64,000 nt of DNA from Escherichia coli. GTDB taxonomy: Bacteria > Pseudomonadota > Gammaproteobacteria > Enterobacterales > Enterobacteriaceae. Both the position numbers and the translations under genes were made by a program. Position 1 is the stretch's first letter; every line of letters starts with the position of its first letter. Shown here one piece after another: positions 46,770-51,351 of this stretch. Location of the stretch: the NCBI RefSeq assembly GCF_041248615.1, contig NZ_CP158426.1. The stretch is one strand, 5' to 3'. The notes beneath the pieces are model-generated. The model was not told the DNA's origin, did not search any database, and was given only the letters and a program-made list of their open reading frames with translations.

Positions 46770-47695
46770 GTATTCGCATAATCCCGCAAGATGAGCTGGG
46801 TTCGAGCGAGAAACGTACGGCGGATATGATTCCGCCGTTATTGTTCCCTCGGCTCAAGAATTTATACAACCGCCGCGCCGAGCGTCTGCGCGAGCTGGCA
46901 GAAAATAATCCGCTGGGTGATTACCTGCGCTTTGCTGCGCTTATCGCCCACGCCCAGGAAGTGGTGCTGTACGACCATCCGCTGGAGATGGATCTGACTG
47001 CACGCATTAAAGAAGCCAGCGCACAGGGCAAGCCCCCGCTGGATATTCACGTTCTGCCGCGTGATAAGCACTGGCAAAAGCTGCTGATGGCGCTAATTGC
47101 TGAGCTGAAACCTGAAATGAGCGGCCCGGCGCTGGCAGTGATTGAGAATCTGGAGAAGGCATCGACTCAGGAGCTGGAAGATATGGCCAGCGCACTGTTT
47201 GCCTCTGATTTCTCATCCGTCAGTAGCGATAAAGCGCCGTTTATCTGGGCTGCACTGTCGCTCTACTGGGCGCAGATGGCCAATCTGATCCCTGGCAAAG
47301 CCCGCGCTGAATACGGCGAACAACGTCAATATTGCCCGGTATGTGGCTCTATGCCTGTTTCCAGCATGGTGCAAATTGGCACCACTCAGGGTCTGCGTTA
47401 CCTGCACTGCAACCTGTGTGAAACCGAATGGCACGTAGTGCGCGTAAAATGCAGCAACTGCGAGCAGAGCGGCAAACTGCATTACTGGTCGCTGGATGAC
47501 GAACAGGCCGCGATTAAAGCCGAAAGCTGCGATGACTGCGGCACTTACCTGAAGATTCTTTATCAGGAAAAAGAACCGAAAGTTGAAGCCGTGGCAGATG
47601 ACCTCGCCTCTCTGGTACTGGACGCGCGAATGGAGCAAGAAGGCTATGCTCGTAGTTCCATCAACCCGTTCCTGTTTCCGGGTGAAGGGGAGTAA
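46766..47695 (+). CDS. fdhE: Formate dehydrogenase formation protein FdhE
   Basis: 309 aa with paired CxxC motifs ([27 protein letters not shown]). Confidence 0.95.
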
Positions 47696-47876
47696 TCTCT
47701 GACGTTTTCCGGGTGGCGCAGGTCGCCCGGATTACAGTTCATAGGGTGTGACGACACCATCTCTCTTATTCCGCGTTACCACCTCAAGCTATGCTGCCAG
47801 TGCCTGTTTTGCCTCAATTTTCACACTGAACAAATCGATAACAATATCGATATCAAATAGCCAAATCTTTTTGCCA

Positions 47877-48095
47877 TTACCATTCCTCGCGCAGCTTACG
47901 CTGGTATTCGACACCATCTTCCTCACTCCCTTGCCAGATGCCAAAAGCACTGGCTCTTGCTGTTTGCGATTGATTTACCAGGTATTGATCTACCGCTTCC
48001 CGTAATAGCTCCGCACGAGGAAGATTATGCTGCACCTCGAGATCATCAAGTTGCTTAAACAACTCATTCGATAAATTGAGTAAAATTCTGCCCAT
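47877..48095 (-). CDS. yiiF: Ribbon-helix-helix (CopG/antitoxin-like) small protein YiiF
   Basis: 72 aa from the ATG at 48095: [42 protein letters not shown]...; RHH pattern. Confidence 0.75.
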
Positions 48096-48337
48096 ATCTA
48101 TACCTGCCAGAGAGTTCATAAATATCTCGCCCATATCATTTTTGAATCTATGGAGAGAAAAGTACCCTTGTCGAATCTTTAAAGAAAGCGTATTTACGCA
48201 TCACTTTTTATTTTTGCGAGGCGTTTTCCAGATATGATGTAACAGTTGCAGTTATTATAAGTTCAAGTAAAACAGCCTTGTATTAATACCAGAATAAGGG
48301 CATCTGTTTTTTTATATTCAAGAATGAAAAATTTTTG

Positions 48338-48556
48338 TCATTCCTTATGCTCCTTACACTGATCATCAACACCAACTACCTCCCCCTTTTGCCTGCCTCC
48401 CTTTGCTTTACGCACCGGGAATTGCTGACGTTCCAGATATTGCTCTACCGCTTCGCGTAAAATTGCAGATCGTGAAACCTTACGCCAGCCCCTAAGCTTG
48501 TTCAGCCGTTTAATTGCCTCTTCTGATAAATGAAGAAAAACCGTATTCATCGCCAT
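48338..48556 (-). CDS. yiiE: Ribbon-helix-helix (CopG/antitoxin-like) small protein YiiE, paralog of YiiF
   Basis: 72 aa from the ATG at 48556: MAMNTVFLHLSEEAIKRLNKLRGWRKVSRSAILREAVEQYLERQ... Confidence 0.75.
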   Translation of the reverse strand: MAMNTVFLHLSEEAIKRLNKLRGWRKVSRSAILREAVEQYLERQQFPVRKAKGGRQKGEVVGVDDQCKEHKE

Positions 48557-48974
48557 TACCACCACCTTACATATATTACTCATTAATGTATGTGCGAAAA
48601 TTACGCCGAAAAATCATTTAAAAAAAGCGGATTTTTGCATGTCGTTTTGTTTTTGCGAGACGGCATCCAAAGATAATGTAACAGTTGCAGTTATTTCAAT
48701 TGTTACTCAAAAATGGTTTAGTAATAACCCAGGATGGTTTATTACTTTTAATTAAGCGGGGACACATCTACAGAAAAGAAACAACAAATAATAAGAATGA
48801 ATTATGGGTGCTATAAATATTTTATATTCAAGAATATTTTTTTGATTGGGTGTTCATTTGCTTCATCAGGATGGTGTACCCGAAAAAGTCAGCAGCTTTA
48901 CCGCACCAGGGTTTAAGGTGAAATCTACCATTCATAACTGACCGGTCAGTGCCGCACCAACCGGTCTTTAATTG

Positions 48975-49253
48975 TTAGTAGTAGTAAATTTGTGGATAAC
49001 AGTCCGGGAACCAGACGATTCCTTCTGGATCATCCCCCTGCATTACCCGATGACATTGGCGTCGATCATCTGCGCGACGGCGAAGCGTAGTATAGAGCCG
49101 CTTCCATTCATGATCGCCCGGTGTACTGTAGTTTACCCAACAATCCATTGAAGGGTGACGCCATTTACCTGTAAGTGTTGGGATCCCTGAATGATTATGT
49201 GGCTTCGCTTTACCATTACGATCCCTATCTTTACGCGTATTAAGCGTGGACAT
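48975..49253 (-). CDS. Hypothetical small basic His/Cys-containing protein (92 aa)
   Basis: ATG at 49253 preceded by CAGGAGACTAAAA (SD 8 nt upstream). MSTLNTRKDRDRNGKAKPHNHSGIPTLTGKWRHPSMDCWVNY...; no family recognised. Confidence 0.45.
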   Translation of the reverse strand: MSTLNTRKDRDRNGKAKPHNHSGIPTLTGKWRHPSMDCWVNYSTPGDHEWKRLYTTLRRRADDRRQCHRVMQGDDPEGIVWFPDCYPQIYYY

Positions 49254-49314
49254 TTTTAGTCTCCTGTTAAGAGTTCTAAAAATGTGCTTCCTTAAAATAG
49301 TTCATCATTTTCCC

Positions 49315-49527
49315 TTAATTCGCATAGCGTGCTTTTGCACGAATTTCCGATACGCGGGGACCATCATGATAGCGTCGATGCCCACACATCCAACAAGAAC
49401 AAATACAGGGAGTACGAAAGCAAATACCTGATGCTTTTTTGCTTCCATCGCCTGCAGTGCGATAACGGCAGCGGATTTTTTTTAATCGCGCCATATGATG
49501 GCGACGTTCAGCACGATTACGGGTCAT
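49315..49527 (-). CDS. Hypothetical small basic Cys-rich protein (70 aa)
   Basis: ATG at 49527 preceded by TCAGGAGTTTTACT (SD supplied by the R1 repeat hairpin). MTRNRAERRHHMARLKKIRCRYRTAGDGSKKASGICFRTPCICSCWMCGH...; no family recognised. Confidence 0.45.
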   Translation of the reverse strand: MTRNRAERRHHMARLKKIRCRYRTAGDGSKKASGICFRTPCICSCWMCGHRRYHDGPRVSEIRAKARYAN

Positions 49528-49532
49528 AGTAA

Positions 49533-49636
49533 AACTCCTGAGCAGGCGGCACTATGCCGCTTTCATAGGAGTTCTGAATGCTGGTGCTTTCTGTATGGCA
49601 TAACCATGCCTCTAACGGTTAAGTGCCTGCAGCACA
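49533..49636. repeat. ~104-bp repeat R1 (nested hairpin), direct copy of R2
   Basis: AACTCCTGAGCAGGCGGCACTATGCCGCTTTCATAGGAGTT... with outer stem AACTCCT/AGGAGTT and inner GCGGCA/TGCCGC; overlaps the 3' end of the antitoxin gene; ~85% identical to 51350..51453. Confidence 0.8.
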
Positions 49637-49902
49637 TGTTGCGGATCATTGGCAATCGCTCGCAGCAAAGCCTTTGCAGGCCCAGTCGGTGAACGTCGCC
49701 CCTGCTCCCAGTTACGCAACGTGTCTACGCTTACGGAAATAAGTTCGGCAAATTTAGATTGTGACAACCCTGAAGCGCGGCGTATTTCTTTGATTTTCAT
49801 AGCATCAACTTCAAAAGTCCGTGAAGGGTGTCGCGTTCCTTCAATAATTTCATTCATCTGGGCCATGCTGTGAGTCAACCGCTCAAAAAGTGCCTTATCC
49901 AT
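49612..49902 (-). CDS. HTH-XRE antitoxin (HigA-like), second gene of a toxin-first TA operon
   Basis: 96 aa; SD GAGGTGG upstream; start abuts the toxin stop. HTH segment IKEIRRASGLSQSKFAELISVSVDTLRNWEQGRRSPTGPAKALL. Confidence 0.8.
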   Translation of the reverse strand: MDKALFERLTHSMAQMNEIIEGTRHPSRTFEVDAMKIKEIRRASGLSQSKFAELISVSVDTLRNWEQGRRSPTGPAKALLRAIANDPQHVLQALNR

Positions 49903-50214
49903 TTACCACCTCGTATTTAACAACCGGAGCATTGCTTTTTCCTGGGGAGACAGATCATCTTTAATACCCTTACGATAAATAAGCAGTAATCTGATCTCAT
50001 AATGTTTAACCTGATGAAAGTAAATAACCCTGACACCAGCACGTTTCCCCTTTCCTCCTGACACCCATCGAACCTTTCTTAACCCACCAGTTTCAGGTAT
50101 TACCTCACCATAGTCAGGATTCAAGGCCAGGAAAAACTGAAAACGACTGAATTCATCGTCGGTCAGCAGTTTTTGAACATCTTCAGTAAAAATTTCCGTT
50201 TCGATGAAGAGCAT
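49903..50214 (-). CDS. RelE/ParE-superfamily toxin (HigB-like)
   Basis: 103 aa, MLFIETEIFTEDVQKLLTDDEFSRFQFFLALNPDYGEVIPETGGLRKVRWVSGGKGKRAGVRVIYFH...; resembles HigB-type toxins as recalled from memory. TATAAT sits immediately upstream of the ATG. Confidence 0.75.
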   Translation of the reverse strand: MLFIETEIFTEDVQKLLTDDEFSRFQFFLALNPDYGEVIPETGGLRKVRWVSGGKGKRAGVRVIYFHQVKHYEIRLLLIYRKGIKDDLSPQEKAMLRLLNTRW

Positions 50215-50430
50215 AATTATACGCCATTGGCTTAGAGTAACAATCCTTTTTGTACGTCATTGACGTACCCTTGAAACCACTAGCTTACTGATAGTGCTCC
50301 AGCAAAACCACGTCTCTGCCGGGTTTGTCTTTACATTTGCGAGGCGCTTTCCAGATTTTTCACGCCCGTGAATTTCCCTGTATCCATCCAGCAAAAACGG
50401 GTGTATAAAACTGTACATTCATACAGCAAA

Positions 50431-51351
50431 ATGAGTTCTACTATGGCACTGGAAAAAGGAATTGCAGAGTTAGTCGAAGAGTTTATCGCTGCGGGTCGCC
50501 CCTCATCGCGTCAACAAAGTATTGCGCAGCGCAGGGAGGGCTATATCGCCAGCGCTGTCCTTGCGGGTGAGACAGAAACGCGGGTAGATATTCAGACTAT
50601 CGAACTTGAAGGGATGATCTTACGAATAGTGTCACCGCTGAATGCCCCGACATTACTCCCGACGATAATTTATTACTACGGTGGCTGTTTTGTTAGCGGC
50701 GGGTTCGCAACTCACGACAACCAGCTGCGCCAGTTAGCCTATTACGGGCAATGTCGGGTTATTGCCGTCCAGTATCGGCTGGCACCGGAACAGACTTTCC
50801 CCGCCGCCCATGATGATGCGCAACGAGGTGCAGAATTAGTCTGGCAACACGCCGAACGACTCGGCGTTGATAAACAACGGATAACTCTTGCCGGTGACAG
50901 TGCGGGCGGACATCTGGCGCTGGTAACTGCTTTGCGATTAAAGCGTGCTGGCGAGTGGCAACCGGCACAACTCATCTTAATTTATCCCATGCTTGATGCG
51001 ACTGCGCATTTCGAAAGCTACATACGCAATGGTCACGATTACATCATCACACGCGACACTTTACTGAGCGGCTTTGAGATGTATCTGCCAGGCATTGAAC
51101 GCAGGCATCCTGAAGCCAGCCCTCTTTGGCGCGATGATTTCAATGGCTTGCCACCTGTACATATCATTACCGCTGAATACGACCCACTTTGCGATGAAGG
51201 TGAAGCGTTGTATCACCGCATGACAGGGCAAGGAGTGCAATGCACCTGCCAACGCTACCTTGGCGTTATCCACGGATTTTTTCAGTTAGGTGGTATCAGT
51301 GAGGCTGCGCGATCGGCGCTGCGGGATGTGGCCTGGAGAGCGGGAAGGTAA
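50431..51351 (+). CDS. Alpha/beta-hydrolase-fold esterase/lipase (HSL/Aes-like)
   Basis: Oxyanion-hole region YYYGGCFVSGG, nucleophile elbow GDSAGG, downstream catalytic Asp/His candidates. Start ambiguous: GTG 50368, ATG 50431 or ATG 50443, none with a clear SD. Confidence 0.7.
   Translation: MSSTMALEKGIAELVEEFIAAGRPSSRQQSIAQRREGYIASAVLAGETETRVDIQTIELEGMILRIVSPLNAPTLLPTIIYYYGGCFVSGGFATHDNQLRQLAYYGQCRVIAVQYRLAPEQTFPAAHDDAQRGAELVWQHAERLGVDKQRITLAGDSAGGHLALVTALRLKRAGEWQPAQLILIYPMLDATAHFESYIRNGHDYIITRDTLLSGFEMYLPGIERRHPEASPLWRDDFNGLPPVHIITAEYDPLCDEGEALYHRMTGQGVQCTCQRYLGVIHGFFQLGGISEAARSALRDVAWRAGR

What the first reader, a model, noticed from the sequence alone, without database searches (positions are those of the whole stretch)
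48975..49527. Two small SD-preceded basic Cys/His-rich ORFs of unknown function between yiiE and the TA pair
ORFs of 70 aa (49315-49527) and 92 aa (48975-49253) each have a canonical AGGAG Shine-Dalgarno 8 nt upstream of ATG, which argues against chance ORFs. Both are very basic and Cys/His-rich (e.g. CICSCWMCGH), suggestive of small zinc-binding or nucleic-acid-binding proteins. They lie in different frames about 60 bp apart and could also be halves of one frameshifted gene.
Basis: seen in the sequence. Interest (0 to 1): 0.45.

Follow-up and report, generated by a model that had tools for sequence, protein, structure and literature searches.

The report
Conserved small two-gene phage-type cassette
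The two small ORFs are real, separately conserved genes of unknown function that travel together on mobile DNA in enterobacteria (one has relatives in T5-like phages), so this is an ordinary accessory cassette rather than a broken gene.

Summary
Two minus-strand ORFs, orfA (70 aa, 49527-49315) and orfB (92 aa, 49253-48975), each have AGGAG 7 nt before the ATG. RefSeq calls both 'hypothetical protein'. They are genuine genes. The same ordered pair recurs in a diverged E. coli allele (76%/64% identity, dN/dS 0.10/0.16), in 8 other Enterobacterales species, on Salmonella plasmids and in an unassigned metagenomic contig. They are not halves of one gene, because each family also occurs alone. orfA belongs to PHROG 4499 (unknown function) and has homologues in 432 phage records, including T5 gene T5.055. 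Its hallmarks are an arginine-rich N-terminal helix and an invariant CSCxMCG[H/N]xR motif. orfB defines an unnamed family (57 representatives) with a conserved C-terminal nPgWW..TRPRR..G.DPDG..W..P..YYW domain. Its cysteines are not conserved. Pfam, NCBIfam, PADLOC and PDB sequence searches gave no match. Structure models are poor, and fold searches found only uncharacterised or non-significant matches. Both ribosome-binding sites lie in predicted hairpins whose arms co-vary between lineages. Cassettes sit in mobile or defence-island contexts. About 23% of complete E. coli genomes carry the full segment; many others keep only a deletion stub. Function is inferred only: translationally gated small nucleic-acid-binding proteins of phage or satellite origin.

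The parts
49315..49527 (-). orfA, 70 aa (RefSeq WP_001590960-type 'hypothetical protein'). Member of PHROG 4499 / phage T5 gene T5.055 family. Arg-rich N-terminal helix (MTRNRAERRHHMARLKKIR) and CSCWMCGHRR motif.
49535..49539 (-). Shine-Dalgarno AGGAG of orfA, 7-nt spacer to the ATG
   Evidence: read from sequence
49531..49575 (-). Predicted nested leader hairpin of orfA. The outer 9-bp stem pairs an upstream anti-SD (AGAACUCCU) with the SD region (AGGAGUUUU). The inner stem is GC-rich (GCGGCA/UGCCGC). dG is -22 kcal/mol, z = -3.3.
   Evidence: same architecture with different arm sequences in about 10 lineages
49533..49599 (.). Copy 1 of a 67-bp direct repeat. It comprises the orfA leader, including the SD and the hairpin.
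51350..51416 (.). Copy 2 of the 67-bp repeat (97% identical). It starts at the stop codon of the alpha/beta-hydrolase gene. The two copies bracket the hydrolase, the toxin and the NadS antitoxin.
48975..49253 (-). orfB, 92 aa (RefSeq WP_001306650-type 'hypothetical protein'). Member of an unnamed family with conserved N-terminus MSTFNTRKDR..GKAKPH and a C-terminal W..TT.RRR.DDR..G.DP[DE]G..W..P..YY[YW] domain.
49261..49265 (-). Shine-Dalgarno AGGAG of orfB, 7-nt spacer
49250..49285 (-). Predicted hairpin enclosing the SD and AUG of orfB (ACAUUUUUAG...CUAAAAAUGU). In lineages with shorter gaps the 5' arm reaches into the end of orfA, which suggests translational coupling.
48882..48904 (-). Terminator-like stem-loop plus T-run about 70 nt downstream of orfB. 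Candidate end of the transcript.
   Evidence: consensus scan only
48940..48966 (.). Palindrome GACCGGT-N13-ACCGGTC, 9 nt after the orfB stop. It is also kept in the deletion-remnant allele.
49476..49483 (-). A8 run in orfA (codons about 15-17). One of the two homopolymer runs near which database frameshift variants of orfA diverge from the intact sequence.
49435..49440 (-). A6 run in orfA. Second candidate frameshift position.
49612..50243 (-). Upstream co-oriented operon: promoter-like site 50243-50216 (10/12 match), 103-aa RelE/ParE-type toxin 50214-49903, NadS-family antitoxin 49902-49612. This is the only promoter-like site found upstream of orfA, so read-through transcription is possible.

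Best explanation
orfA and orfB are two intact, separately translated genes that form a conserved bicistronic cassette (orfA then orfB) of phage or mobile-element origin. The cassette sits in the hypervariable fdhE-fabY interval of this E. coli.

Shown:
- Both frames are under purifying selection.
- The ordered pair recurs across Enterobacterales, and the two proteins diverge in step.
- orfA belongs to the phage family PHROG 4499 (T5.055 in phage T5).
- orfB belongs to a second, unnamed small-protein family.
- Either family can occur alone.
- The cassette is dispensable in E. coli, where many genomes keep only a deletion stub.

Inferred:
- orfA is a small, very basic nucleic-acid-binding protein. 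The binding surface would be an Arg-rich N-terminal helix buttressed by a three-cysteine CSCxMCG knuckle that probably holds a metal ion.
- orfB is its basic, aromatic-rich partner.
- Expression is gated at translation. The orfA SD is sequestered in a stable nested leader hairpin.
- The orfB SD and AUG sit in a second hairpin that, in most lineages, a ribosome finishing orfA would open.

Because of where the cassettes sit, the most likely role is an accessory regulator or modulator used in phage-satellite-host conflict. Contexts are the phage T5 early region, AlpA/primase-type islands, and positions next to Zorya, Wadjet, Lamassu and toxin-antitoxin genes. No specific target is established.

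The confidence of 0.55 is for the whole statement. The 'real, conserved, mobile-element-derived two-gene cassette' part alone is about 0.95. The nucleic-acid-binding and translational-gating part is about 0.4. The conflict-related role is about 0.3.
For: Real genes:
- ORFs and SDs are present as described.
- RefSeq annotates both.
- The pair is conserved at 76%/64% identity in another E. coli allele with different flanks. dN/dS is 0.10 and 0.16 with dS saturated.
- The pair is also found in Edwardsiella, in an unassigned metagenomic contig after a primase gene, and in IMG/VR contigs.
- orfA lies immediately upstream of orfB in 9 of 15 orfB loci from representative genomes of Klebsiella, Kosakonia, Atlantibacter, Mixta, Huaxiibacter, Citrobacter and others.
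- The pair is on Salmonella plasmids.
- Pairwise identities of A and B correlate across 14 pairs (Pearson r = 0.89).

Families:
- orfA hits PHROG 4499 at 1e-13.
- 432 phage records carry a homologue, including T5.055.
- CSCxMCG is invariant in 76 distinct homologues, including those retrieved by the other search pattern.
- The orfB profile finds 57 representatives with a conserved C-terminal domain.

Translational gating:
- The orfA leader hairpin has dG -22 and z -3.3.
- The MFE places at least part of the GGAG/GAGG core in the 3' arm of a nested hairpin in 16 of the 17 distinct enterobacterial leaders listed. The exception is L011, whose start was called 3 nt upstream there but shows the same helix. 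The arms differ and compensate: AGAACUCCU/AGGAGUUUU, UCCUCAUA/UAUGAGGA, ACUCCGGG/CCCGGAGU, CACUCCGA/UCGGAGUG, CCAUUCGG/CCGAAUGG.
- Long SD-overlapping helices occur in 42% of 38 distinct orfA leaders against 16% of 604 control leaders (Fisher p = 3e-4).
- The orfB hairpin forms a standard pair in 73.8% of cells against 54% or less when slid, and 3 pairs have double changes.

Context:
- Zorya, Wadjet, Lamassu.
- AlpA-like excisionase/regulator (PHROG 66 match) and primase.
- TA genes.
Against: - No experiment or annotation gives a function. Pfam, NCBIfam, PADLOC and PDB sequence searches are all negative.
- AlphaFold models are weak (pLDDT 56 and 68). The afdb50 search with the orfB model returned only uncharacterised enterobacterial proteins, and the BFVD search with the orfA model returned nothing significant.
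- Only three cysteines are invariant. The candidate fourth ligands (C41, H10, H11, H50) are each missing in some homologues, so a classical zinc site is not secured.
- CSCWMCG was itself one of the search patterns, which inflates its apparent invariance.
- With a coarse measure, SD pairing probability is only modestly above controls (0.62 vs 0.56).
- The sequences in the covariation counts are few and related.
- No promoter was found directly upstream of orfA.
- Many E. coli genomes have lost the pair, and database variants carry frameshifts. This fits a dispensable or decaying element.
- Defence-island adjacency rests on a handful of loci.
Confidence: 0.55

Rival explanations
1. A novel toxin-antitoxin-like or abortive-infection pair. 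orfA, upstream, would be the antitoxin-like neutraliser. orfB, downstream and translationally coupled, would be the toxin. T5-like phages would carry orfA alone as a counter-defence, as T4 Dmd does against RnlA (the Dmd comparison is from my own knowledge).
For: - Two small co-oriented genes with a short gap and fixed order.
- Both start sites are occluded by hairpins, as is common for toxic products.
- The cassettes sit in mobile DNA and defence islands, next to other TA genes.
- Where orfB lacks orfA, the upstream small ORF looks acidic by inspection of the translations (pI not computed; L096, L100, L116). This would fit swapped antitoxins.
Against: - Both proteins are basic (pI 10.9 and 9.3).
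- Neither matches any TA or defence profile.
- orfB occurs with no obvious upstream partner in several loci (L097-L099).
- Loss of the pair by a deletion that removes parts of both genes is common.
- No toxicity data exist.
Confidence: 0.15
2. A functionless relic. The pair would be the leftover end of an old phage or satellite insertion, still intact in this lineage only because too little time has passed. It would be silent because its ribosome-binding sites are buried and it has no promoter of its own.
For: - Only 1269 of 5426 complete E. coli genomes carry at least 80% of the segment. About 1500 carry only a roughly 125-bp stub. In the one remnant examined (L005), the first 17 codons of orfA are joined to a decayed orfB tail.
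- Frameshift variants exist in databases.
- No promoter-like site lies directly upstream.
- The interval is a mosaic hot spot.
Against: - dN/dS is 0.10-0.16 between deeply diverged alleles.
- Both ORFs are kept open with conserved N-termini across many genera.
- Compensatory changes preserve both hairpins.
- The same fabY-hydrolase-NadS-orfA-orfB-fdhE order is seen in Klebsiella spallanzanii.
All of these indicate continuing selection on the family, though not necessarily in this strain.
Confidence: 0.15
3. One frameshifted gene, or two chance ORFs.
For: The ORFs are close together, in different frames and very short. A deletion allele in other strains joins the start of orfA to the end of orfB.
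Against: - No fused ORF exists in any relative.
- Each ORF has its own SD and a conserved N-terminus.
- The families occur independently and do not cross-match.
- Both frames are under purifying selection.
Confidence: 0.02

Closest known systems
PHROG 4499 / phage T5 gene T5.055 (YP_006883.1, hypothetical protein in the T5 early region beside tRNA genes and homing endonucleases)
   Same: orfA matches the PHROG profile over almost its whole length (E 1e-13) and is about 49% identical to T5.055 over residues 4-63. It shares the RA.RRHH..R.K..R helix and the TPCxCSCWMCG[HN]xRK motif.
   Different: T5.055 is 103 aa with an acidic C-terminal tail that orfA lacks. T5-like phages have no orfB next to it. 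The family itself has no known function, so membership explains nothing about mechanism.
Ogr/Delta family (P2 Ogr, P4 Delta): small basic zinc-finger transcription activators of phages and satellites (comparison from my own knowledge)
   Same: About 70 aa, basic and Cys-bearing. Encoded by phages and by P4-like or island contexts. orfA cassettes follow an AlpA-like or a P4-alpha-like primase gene in L086 and L010.
   Different: There is no Pfam match at all, even at E <= 10. The cysteine pattern is CxCxCxxC with only three invariant Cys, not CX2C-X22-CX4C. Not a member; at most a functional analogy.
Arginine-rich-motif RNA-binding proteins such as lambda/P22 N, which act on GC-stem pentaloop hairpins (comparison from my own knowledge)
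   Same: The N-terminus MARTRAERRHHMRRMK resembles ARM peptides. The orfA leader contains a GC-rich stem, often with a 5-nt loop, nested inside the SD-sequestering stem.
   Different: No sequence homology was detected. Loop sequences are not conserved between lineages. No nut-like context is present. The resemblance is a lead only.
Type II toxin-antitoxin modules
   Same: Two small adjacent co-oriented genes on mobile DNA, next to a bona fide RelE/ParE-NadS pair.
   Different: No profile match. Both proteins are basic. Each gene is frequently found alone.

Membership tests
PHROG 4499 (T5.055-like phage proteins), for orfA | Significant full-length match to the family profile | tested here: met
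   E 1.2e-13, residues 3-67 of 70 against profile 6-73/88. Relatives P0020, P0048 and P0049 also match.
PHROG 4499 (T5.055-like phage proteins), for orfA | CSCxMCG[H/N]xR motif and N-terminal RA.RR(HH)..R.K..R helix | tested here: met
   Present in orfA. C43, S44, C45, M47, C48 and G49 are invariant in 76 distinct homologues. Caveat: CSCWMCG was one of the retrieval patterns.
Unnamed orfB family (57 representatives at 50% clustering) | C-terminal domain nPgWW.R...TRPRR..dR......G.DPDG..W....P..YYW | tested here: met
   orfB carries W50, T55-T56, R58-R60, D63-R64, G73, D75-P76, G78, W81, P87 and a YYY end. The profile search returns the family at E down to 1e-47.
Any Pfam-A, NCBIfam or PADLOC family, for both proteins | Profile match above threshold | tested here: not met
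   No match for either protein, even at E <= 10 in Pfam. No Pfam family among 33 orfB-family members.
Ogr/Delta zinc-finger activators | Pfam Ogr_Delta match and CX2C-X22-CX4C spacing | tested here: not met
   No Pfam hit. The spacing in orfA is C41-x-C43-x-C45-xx-C48.
Classical structural zinc site (four Cys/His ligands) | Four invariant ligands | tested here: inconclusive
   Three Cys are invariant. C41 is present in 67%, and H10 and H11 in 78% each. Position 50 is N in 75% and H in 25%. Metal binding cannot be measured with these tools.
Type II toxin-antitoxin pair | Adjacent co-oriented small genes with fixed order | tested here: met
   orfA then orfB, with gaps of 19-66 nt in 14 pairs.
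Type II toxin-antitoxin pair | Homology to known toxin or antitoxin folds; obligate co-occurrence | tested here: not met
   No TA or defence profile match. orfA occurs alone in T5-like phages, and orfB occurs alone in L096-L100, L103, L109, L111-L114.
Type II toxin-antitoxin pair | Toxicity of one partner, neutralised by the other | not testable with these tools
   Needs expression experiments.
Single frameshifted gene (pseudogene) | A continuous ORF spanning both parts in relatives | tested here: not met
   None found in any of about 120 loci. The two profiles do not cross-match.
Lambda N-type ARM antiterminators | Sequence homology, nut/boxB target | tested here: inconclusive
   No Pfam hit. 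The ARM-like N-terminus and the GC-stem/pentaloop in the leader are resemblances only. Binding was not tested.

The most novel reading that the evidence does not exclude
orfA/orfB would be the founding example of an uncharacterised two-protein module of phages and satellites. In it, an ARM-plus-Cys-knuckle RNA-binding protein (orfA, the T5.055 family) binds the conserved GC-stem hairpin in its own leader and so autoregulates a translationally coupled partner (orfB). The module would act in defence or counter-defence, for example with T5-like phages carrying orfA alone to neutralise host orfB-type effectors.
Probability: 0.1. Interest if true: 0.65.

Novelty: new member of a known kind. Interest (0 to 1): 0.35.

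Why it matters
The result is modest. It settles that these two annotated 'hypothetical proteins' are genuine, selected genes and not a broken gene.

It links a chromosomal E. coli ORF to an uncharacterised early gene conserved in T5-like phages (432 phage records match). It also defines a second unnamed small-protein family, orfB, that is in neither Pfam nor PHROGs.

The conserved SD-sequestering hairpins give a concrete, testable handle on regulation. The repeated placement beside Zorya, Wadjet, Lamassu and TA genes makes the pair a reasonable candidate for phage-host conflict screens.

If orfA turned out to be an RNA-binding autoregulator or an anti-defence factor, that would give a function to a widespread phage gene family.

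Tried and rejected
- Pfam on both proteins, on 33 orfB-family members and on the 211-aa neighbour: nothing.
- NCBIfam and PADLOC on both proteins: nothing.
- PHROGs on orfB and ten distant relatives: nothing.
- PDB sequence search with both profiles: nothing at E <= 10.
- AlphaFold2 models are of low confidence (pLDDT 68 for orfB, 56 for orfA). Foldseek against AFDB50 with the orfB model returned only uncharacterised enterobacterial proteins. Foldseek against BFVD with the orfA model returned nothing significant. No fold assignment is possible.
- Rfam on 47600-52000: no known RNA family.
- Literature searches by accession, PHROG number, T5 locus tags and yiiE/yiiF/fdhE: nothing relevant.
- Fusion or common origin of the two families: profiles do not cross-match.
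- A conserved third gene: the gene upstream of orfA differs between lineages. It is a 211-241-aa family, a 190-aa family, a PHROG 7522 protein, or the TA pair, all mutually unrelated.
- Plasmid leading-region location: not the case in the two plasmids inspected.
- One column-wise covariation test for the orfA leader failed. MAFFT cannot put the outer arms in register. I relied instead on per-sequence folds and a register-free helix statistic with control leaders.
- A coarse SD-pairing-probability measure showed only a small excess over controls.

Full report
**Observation**

The window is E. coli chromosome around fdoGHI-fdhE, yiiF, yiiE and fabY. It matches NZ_OW967178 at 100% over the 701-bp query, window 48900-49600.

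On the minus strand lie two ORFs, which I call orfA and orfB. orfA is 70 aa (49527-49315, ATG). orfB is 92 aa (49253-48975, ATG). AGGAG lies at 49539-49535 and at 49265-49261, each 7 nt before its ATG. The gap between the ORFs is 61 nt and the frames differ.

orfA has pI 10.9, 6 Cys and 4 His. orfB has pI 9.3, 3 Cys and 5 His. RefSeq annotates both as 'hypothetical protein' (WP_001590960 and WP_001306650). In some genomes only orfB is annotated although orfA is intact there.

**They are real genes**

A second E. coli allele (L006) carries the same ordered pair with different neighbours on both sides. Identity is 76% for orfA and 64% for orfB. Synonymous sites are saturated, and dN/dS is 0.10 and 0.16.

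More distant pairs occur in:
- Edwardsiella tarda.
- An unassigned metagenomic contig, directly after a P4-alpha-like primase gene.
- IMG/VR contigs.
- Salmonella plasmids.

In a scan of one genome per species, orfA lies immediately upstream of orfB in 9 of 15 orfB loci. These come from Escherichia, Klebsiella, Mixta, Kosakonia, Atlantibacter, Edwardsiella, Huaxiibacter and Citrobacter.

The N-termini are conserved (M[AT]R[NT]RAERRHH and MSTFNTRKDR), which fixes both start codons. Across 14 pairs the divergence of A tracks that of B (Pearson r = 0.89).

**They are not one broken gene**

No relative has a continuous ORF across both parts. orfA occurs without orfB in T5-like and many other phage contigs. 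orfB occurs without orfA in L096-L100 and in six of the 15 genome loci. The two profiles do not cross-match.

The nearest thing to a fusion is a decay product. In L005, a genome lacking the pair, the first 17 codons of orfA (MTRNRAERRHPMMRLKK) are joined to a diverged, stop-containing tail of orfB.

Of 5426 complete E. coli genomes, 1269 carry at least 80% of the 701-bp segment. About 1500 more match only its last 125 bp or so, at about 91% identity.

Database variants of orfA include frameshifts. The variant sequences diverge from the intact one near the A8 (49476-49483) and A6 (49435-49440) runs, and some shifts are compensating. Sequencing error cannot be excluded for these.

**What the proteins are**

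Neither protein matches Pfam, NCBIfam or PADLOC.

orfA:
- It matches PHROG 4499, a family of unknown function, at E 1e-13.
- 432 phage records encode a homologue. Most are T5-like Escherichia or Salmonella phages. One is T5 itself: gene T5.055, 103 aa, in the early region beside tRNA genes and homing endonucleases.
- 152 plasmid records match orfA at the protein level; one of them is a 4.9-Mb E. coli record that is evidently a chromosome.
- Over 76 distinct homologues the motif C-S-C-x-M-C-G is invariant. It is followed by H or N, then x-R. The N-terminal RA.RRHH..R.K..R segment is 78-95% conserved.
- Only three cysteines are invariant. C41, H10, H11 and H50 are each absent in some members, so a four-ligand zinc site is plausible but not secured.
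- One retrieval pattern was CSCWMCG itself. Members retrieved by the other pattern still keep the three cysteines.

orfB:
- An exhaustive profile search found 57 cluster representatives.
- They share a C-terminal domain of about 50 residues: nPgWW.Rl..TRPRRa.dR......G.DPDg..Wp...kP..YYW.
- The cysteines of orfB are not conserved.
- No PHROG contains the family.

Structure gave nothing. AlphaFold models are weak. Foldseek with the orfB model returned only uncharacterised enterobacterial proteins, and with the orfA model nothing significant. PDB sequence searches found nothing.

**Regulatory anatomy (predicted)**

The 45 nt before orfA fold into a nested hairpin (dG -22 kcal/mol; z = -3.3 against shuffles).
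- The outer stem pairs AGAACUCCU (49575-49567) with AGGAGUUUU (49539-49531), which buries the SD.
- The inner stem is GCGGCA/UGCCGC.

In 16 of the 17 distinct enterobacterial orfA leaders I extracted, the minimum-free-energy fold has the same architecture, with at least part of the GGAG/GAGG core in the 3' arm. The exception, L011, had its start called 3 nt upstream in that run and shows the same helix. The arm sequences differ and compensate:
- UCCUCAUA/UAUGAGGA (Edwardsiella, Kosakonia)
- UUUCUUCAUAU/AUAUGAGGAAG
- GAAACUC/GGAGUUUC
- ACUCCGGG/CCCGGAGU
- CACUCCGA/UCGGAGUG
- CCAUUCGG/CCGAAUGG

Across all phage and bacterial homologues, long helices overlapping the SD are enriched relative to other genes in the same loci (42% of 38 against 16% of 604; Fisher p = 3e-4). 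A cruder pairing-probability measure shows only a small excess. I could not obtain a column-wise covariation test, because the arms do not align in register.

orfB's SD and AUG also lie in a hairpin (49285-49250). On a 10-sequence alignment, 73.8% of cells pair, against 54% or less when the partner is slid. Three pairs show double changes. In lineages with gaps of 19-41 nt, the 5' arm overlaps the end of orfA. That is the geometry expected for translational coupling.

No sigma-70-like site lies directly upstream of orfA. The nearest is upstream of the co-oriented toxin gene (50243-50216). A terminator-like site follows orfB at 48904-48882. Rfam finds nothing here.

**Context**

The fdhE-fabY interval is a mosaic.

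In this window the orfA leader is present twice: 49533-49599 and 51350-51416, 97% identical. The second copy begins at the stop codon of the alpha/beta-hydrolase gene. The two copies therefore bracket the hydrolase, the RelE/ParE-type toxin and the NadS antitoxin. Klebsiella spallanzanii has the same order: fabY, hydrolase, NadS, orfA, orfB, fdhE.

Elsewhere the gene upstream of orfA differs between lineages and the versions are unrelated.

Neighbours of the cassettes include:
- ZorD of Zorya.
- Wadjet JetABCD.
- Lamassu LmuA/B, next to a solitary orfB.
- An AlpA-like excisionase/regulator gene (PHROG 66 match).
- A RelE/ParE toxin on a Klebsiella plasmid.

This places the cassette among accessory genes of mobile elements and defence islands. 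The sample is small and was not tested against expectation.

**Interpretation**

I am confident (about 0.95) that this is a conserved, selected two-gene cassette of phage or mobile-element origin, and not a frameshifted gene.

I consider it likely, but unproven, that orfA is a small nucleic-acid-binding protein (Arg-rich helix plus Cys knuckle). I also consider it likely that expression of both genes is gated by the hairpins, with orfB coupled to orfA.

The biological role is inferred from context only: a regulator or modulator in phage-satellite-host conflict. A toxin-antitoxin-like reading and a silent-relic reading remain open, at about 0.15 each.

The literature searches found no study of either family.

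**Verdict**

This is an ordinary but genuine accessory cassette. Novelty is limited to membership of uncharacterised families, plus a previously undescribed (predicted) translational-control architecture. Interest is moderate to low.

Noticed in passing
window 49533-49599 and 51350-51416: A 67-bp direct repeat (97% identical) that is the orfA leader, including the SD and the hairpin. The second copy starts at the stop codon of the alpha/beta-hydrolase gene (50368-51351). The repeats therefore bracket the hydrolase, the RelE/ParE-type toxin and the NadS antitoxin, as if that 1.8-kb block had been inserted or duplicated between the leader and orfA. There are at most two copies per E. coli genome.
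   Followed up: partly
L005 2889-3054 (E. coli 2018-10-2CC), representative of about 1500 genomes: Deletion remnant of the cassette. The orfA start (17 codons) is joined to a diverged orfB tail that has a CGA>TGA stop and an indel. The surrounding DNA is only about 91% identical to the window, which indicates old allelic divergence at this locus.
   Followed up: yes
L006 2281-3546: A 421-aa 'ORF' next to fabY made of tandem repeats of about 50 aa (DGDCLVGLISAAHQACW...). It is probably an array of REP/BIME-type intergenic repeats rather than a gene. The same allele replaces yiiE/yiiF with a 116-aa membrane protein.
   Followed up: no
window 49476-49483 (A8) and 49435-49440 (A6), minus strand, within orfA: Database variants of orfA diverge from the intact sequence near these homopolymer runs. 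Some have two compensating shifts that keep the N-terminus and the CSCWMCGH end in frame (P0012-P0014). This could be sequencing error, decay or phase variation.
   Followed up: no
L014 165-6871; L086 6654-9896; L107 6421-9663; L112 6387-11068: orfA/orfB (or orfB alone) lie directly beside known defence systems: Wadjet JetABCD, type I Zorya ZorD (apparently split in L107) and Lamassu LmuA/LmuB.
   Followed up: partly
L104 5929-6544 (Mixta sp.): Two tandem, partly overlapping orfB paralogues follow a single orfA.
   Followed up: no
L012 7245-7880, L014 7246-7914, L036 5189-5914, L105, L106 (broken in L108, L111): A 211-241-aa protein family with no Pfam, NCBIfam or PHROG match (MxRxYTLFTSLSRRKRRAKTLKIK...) precedes orfA-orfB in Edwardsiella, Kosakonia, Klebsiella oxytoca and several viral-collection contigs. 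Together they form three-gene islets without an integrase.
   Followed up: partly
window 48713-48733: A 21-bp segment flanked by the direct repeat ATGGTTTA is present in the window but absent from four other E. coli alleles, in the yiiE-orfB intergenic region.
   Followed up: no
window 48940-48966: Perfect 7-bp palindrome GACCGGT-N13-ACCGGTC, 9 nt after the orfB stop. It is followed by a T-rich tract on the plus strand and is conserved even in the remnant allele. Its role is unknown (bidirectional terminator or protein site).
   Followed up: no
window about 51500-53400 (from RefSeq annotation of the identical genome, L001 8621-10435): A transposase gene and a truncated hypothetical gene are inserted between the hydrolase and fabY in this strain. 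They are absent from L002-L005.
   Followed up: no
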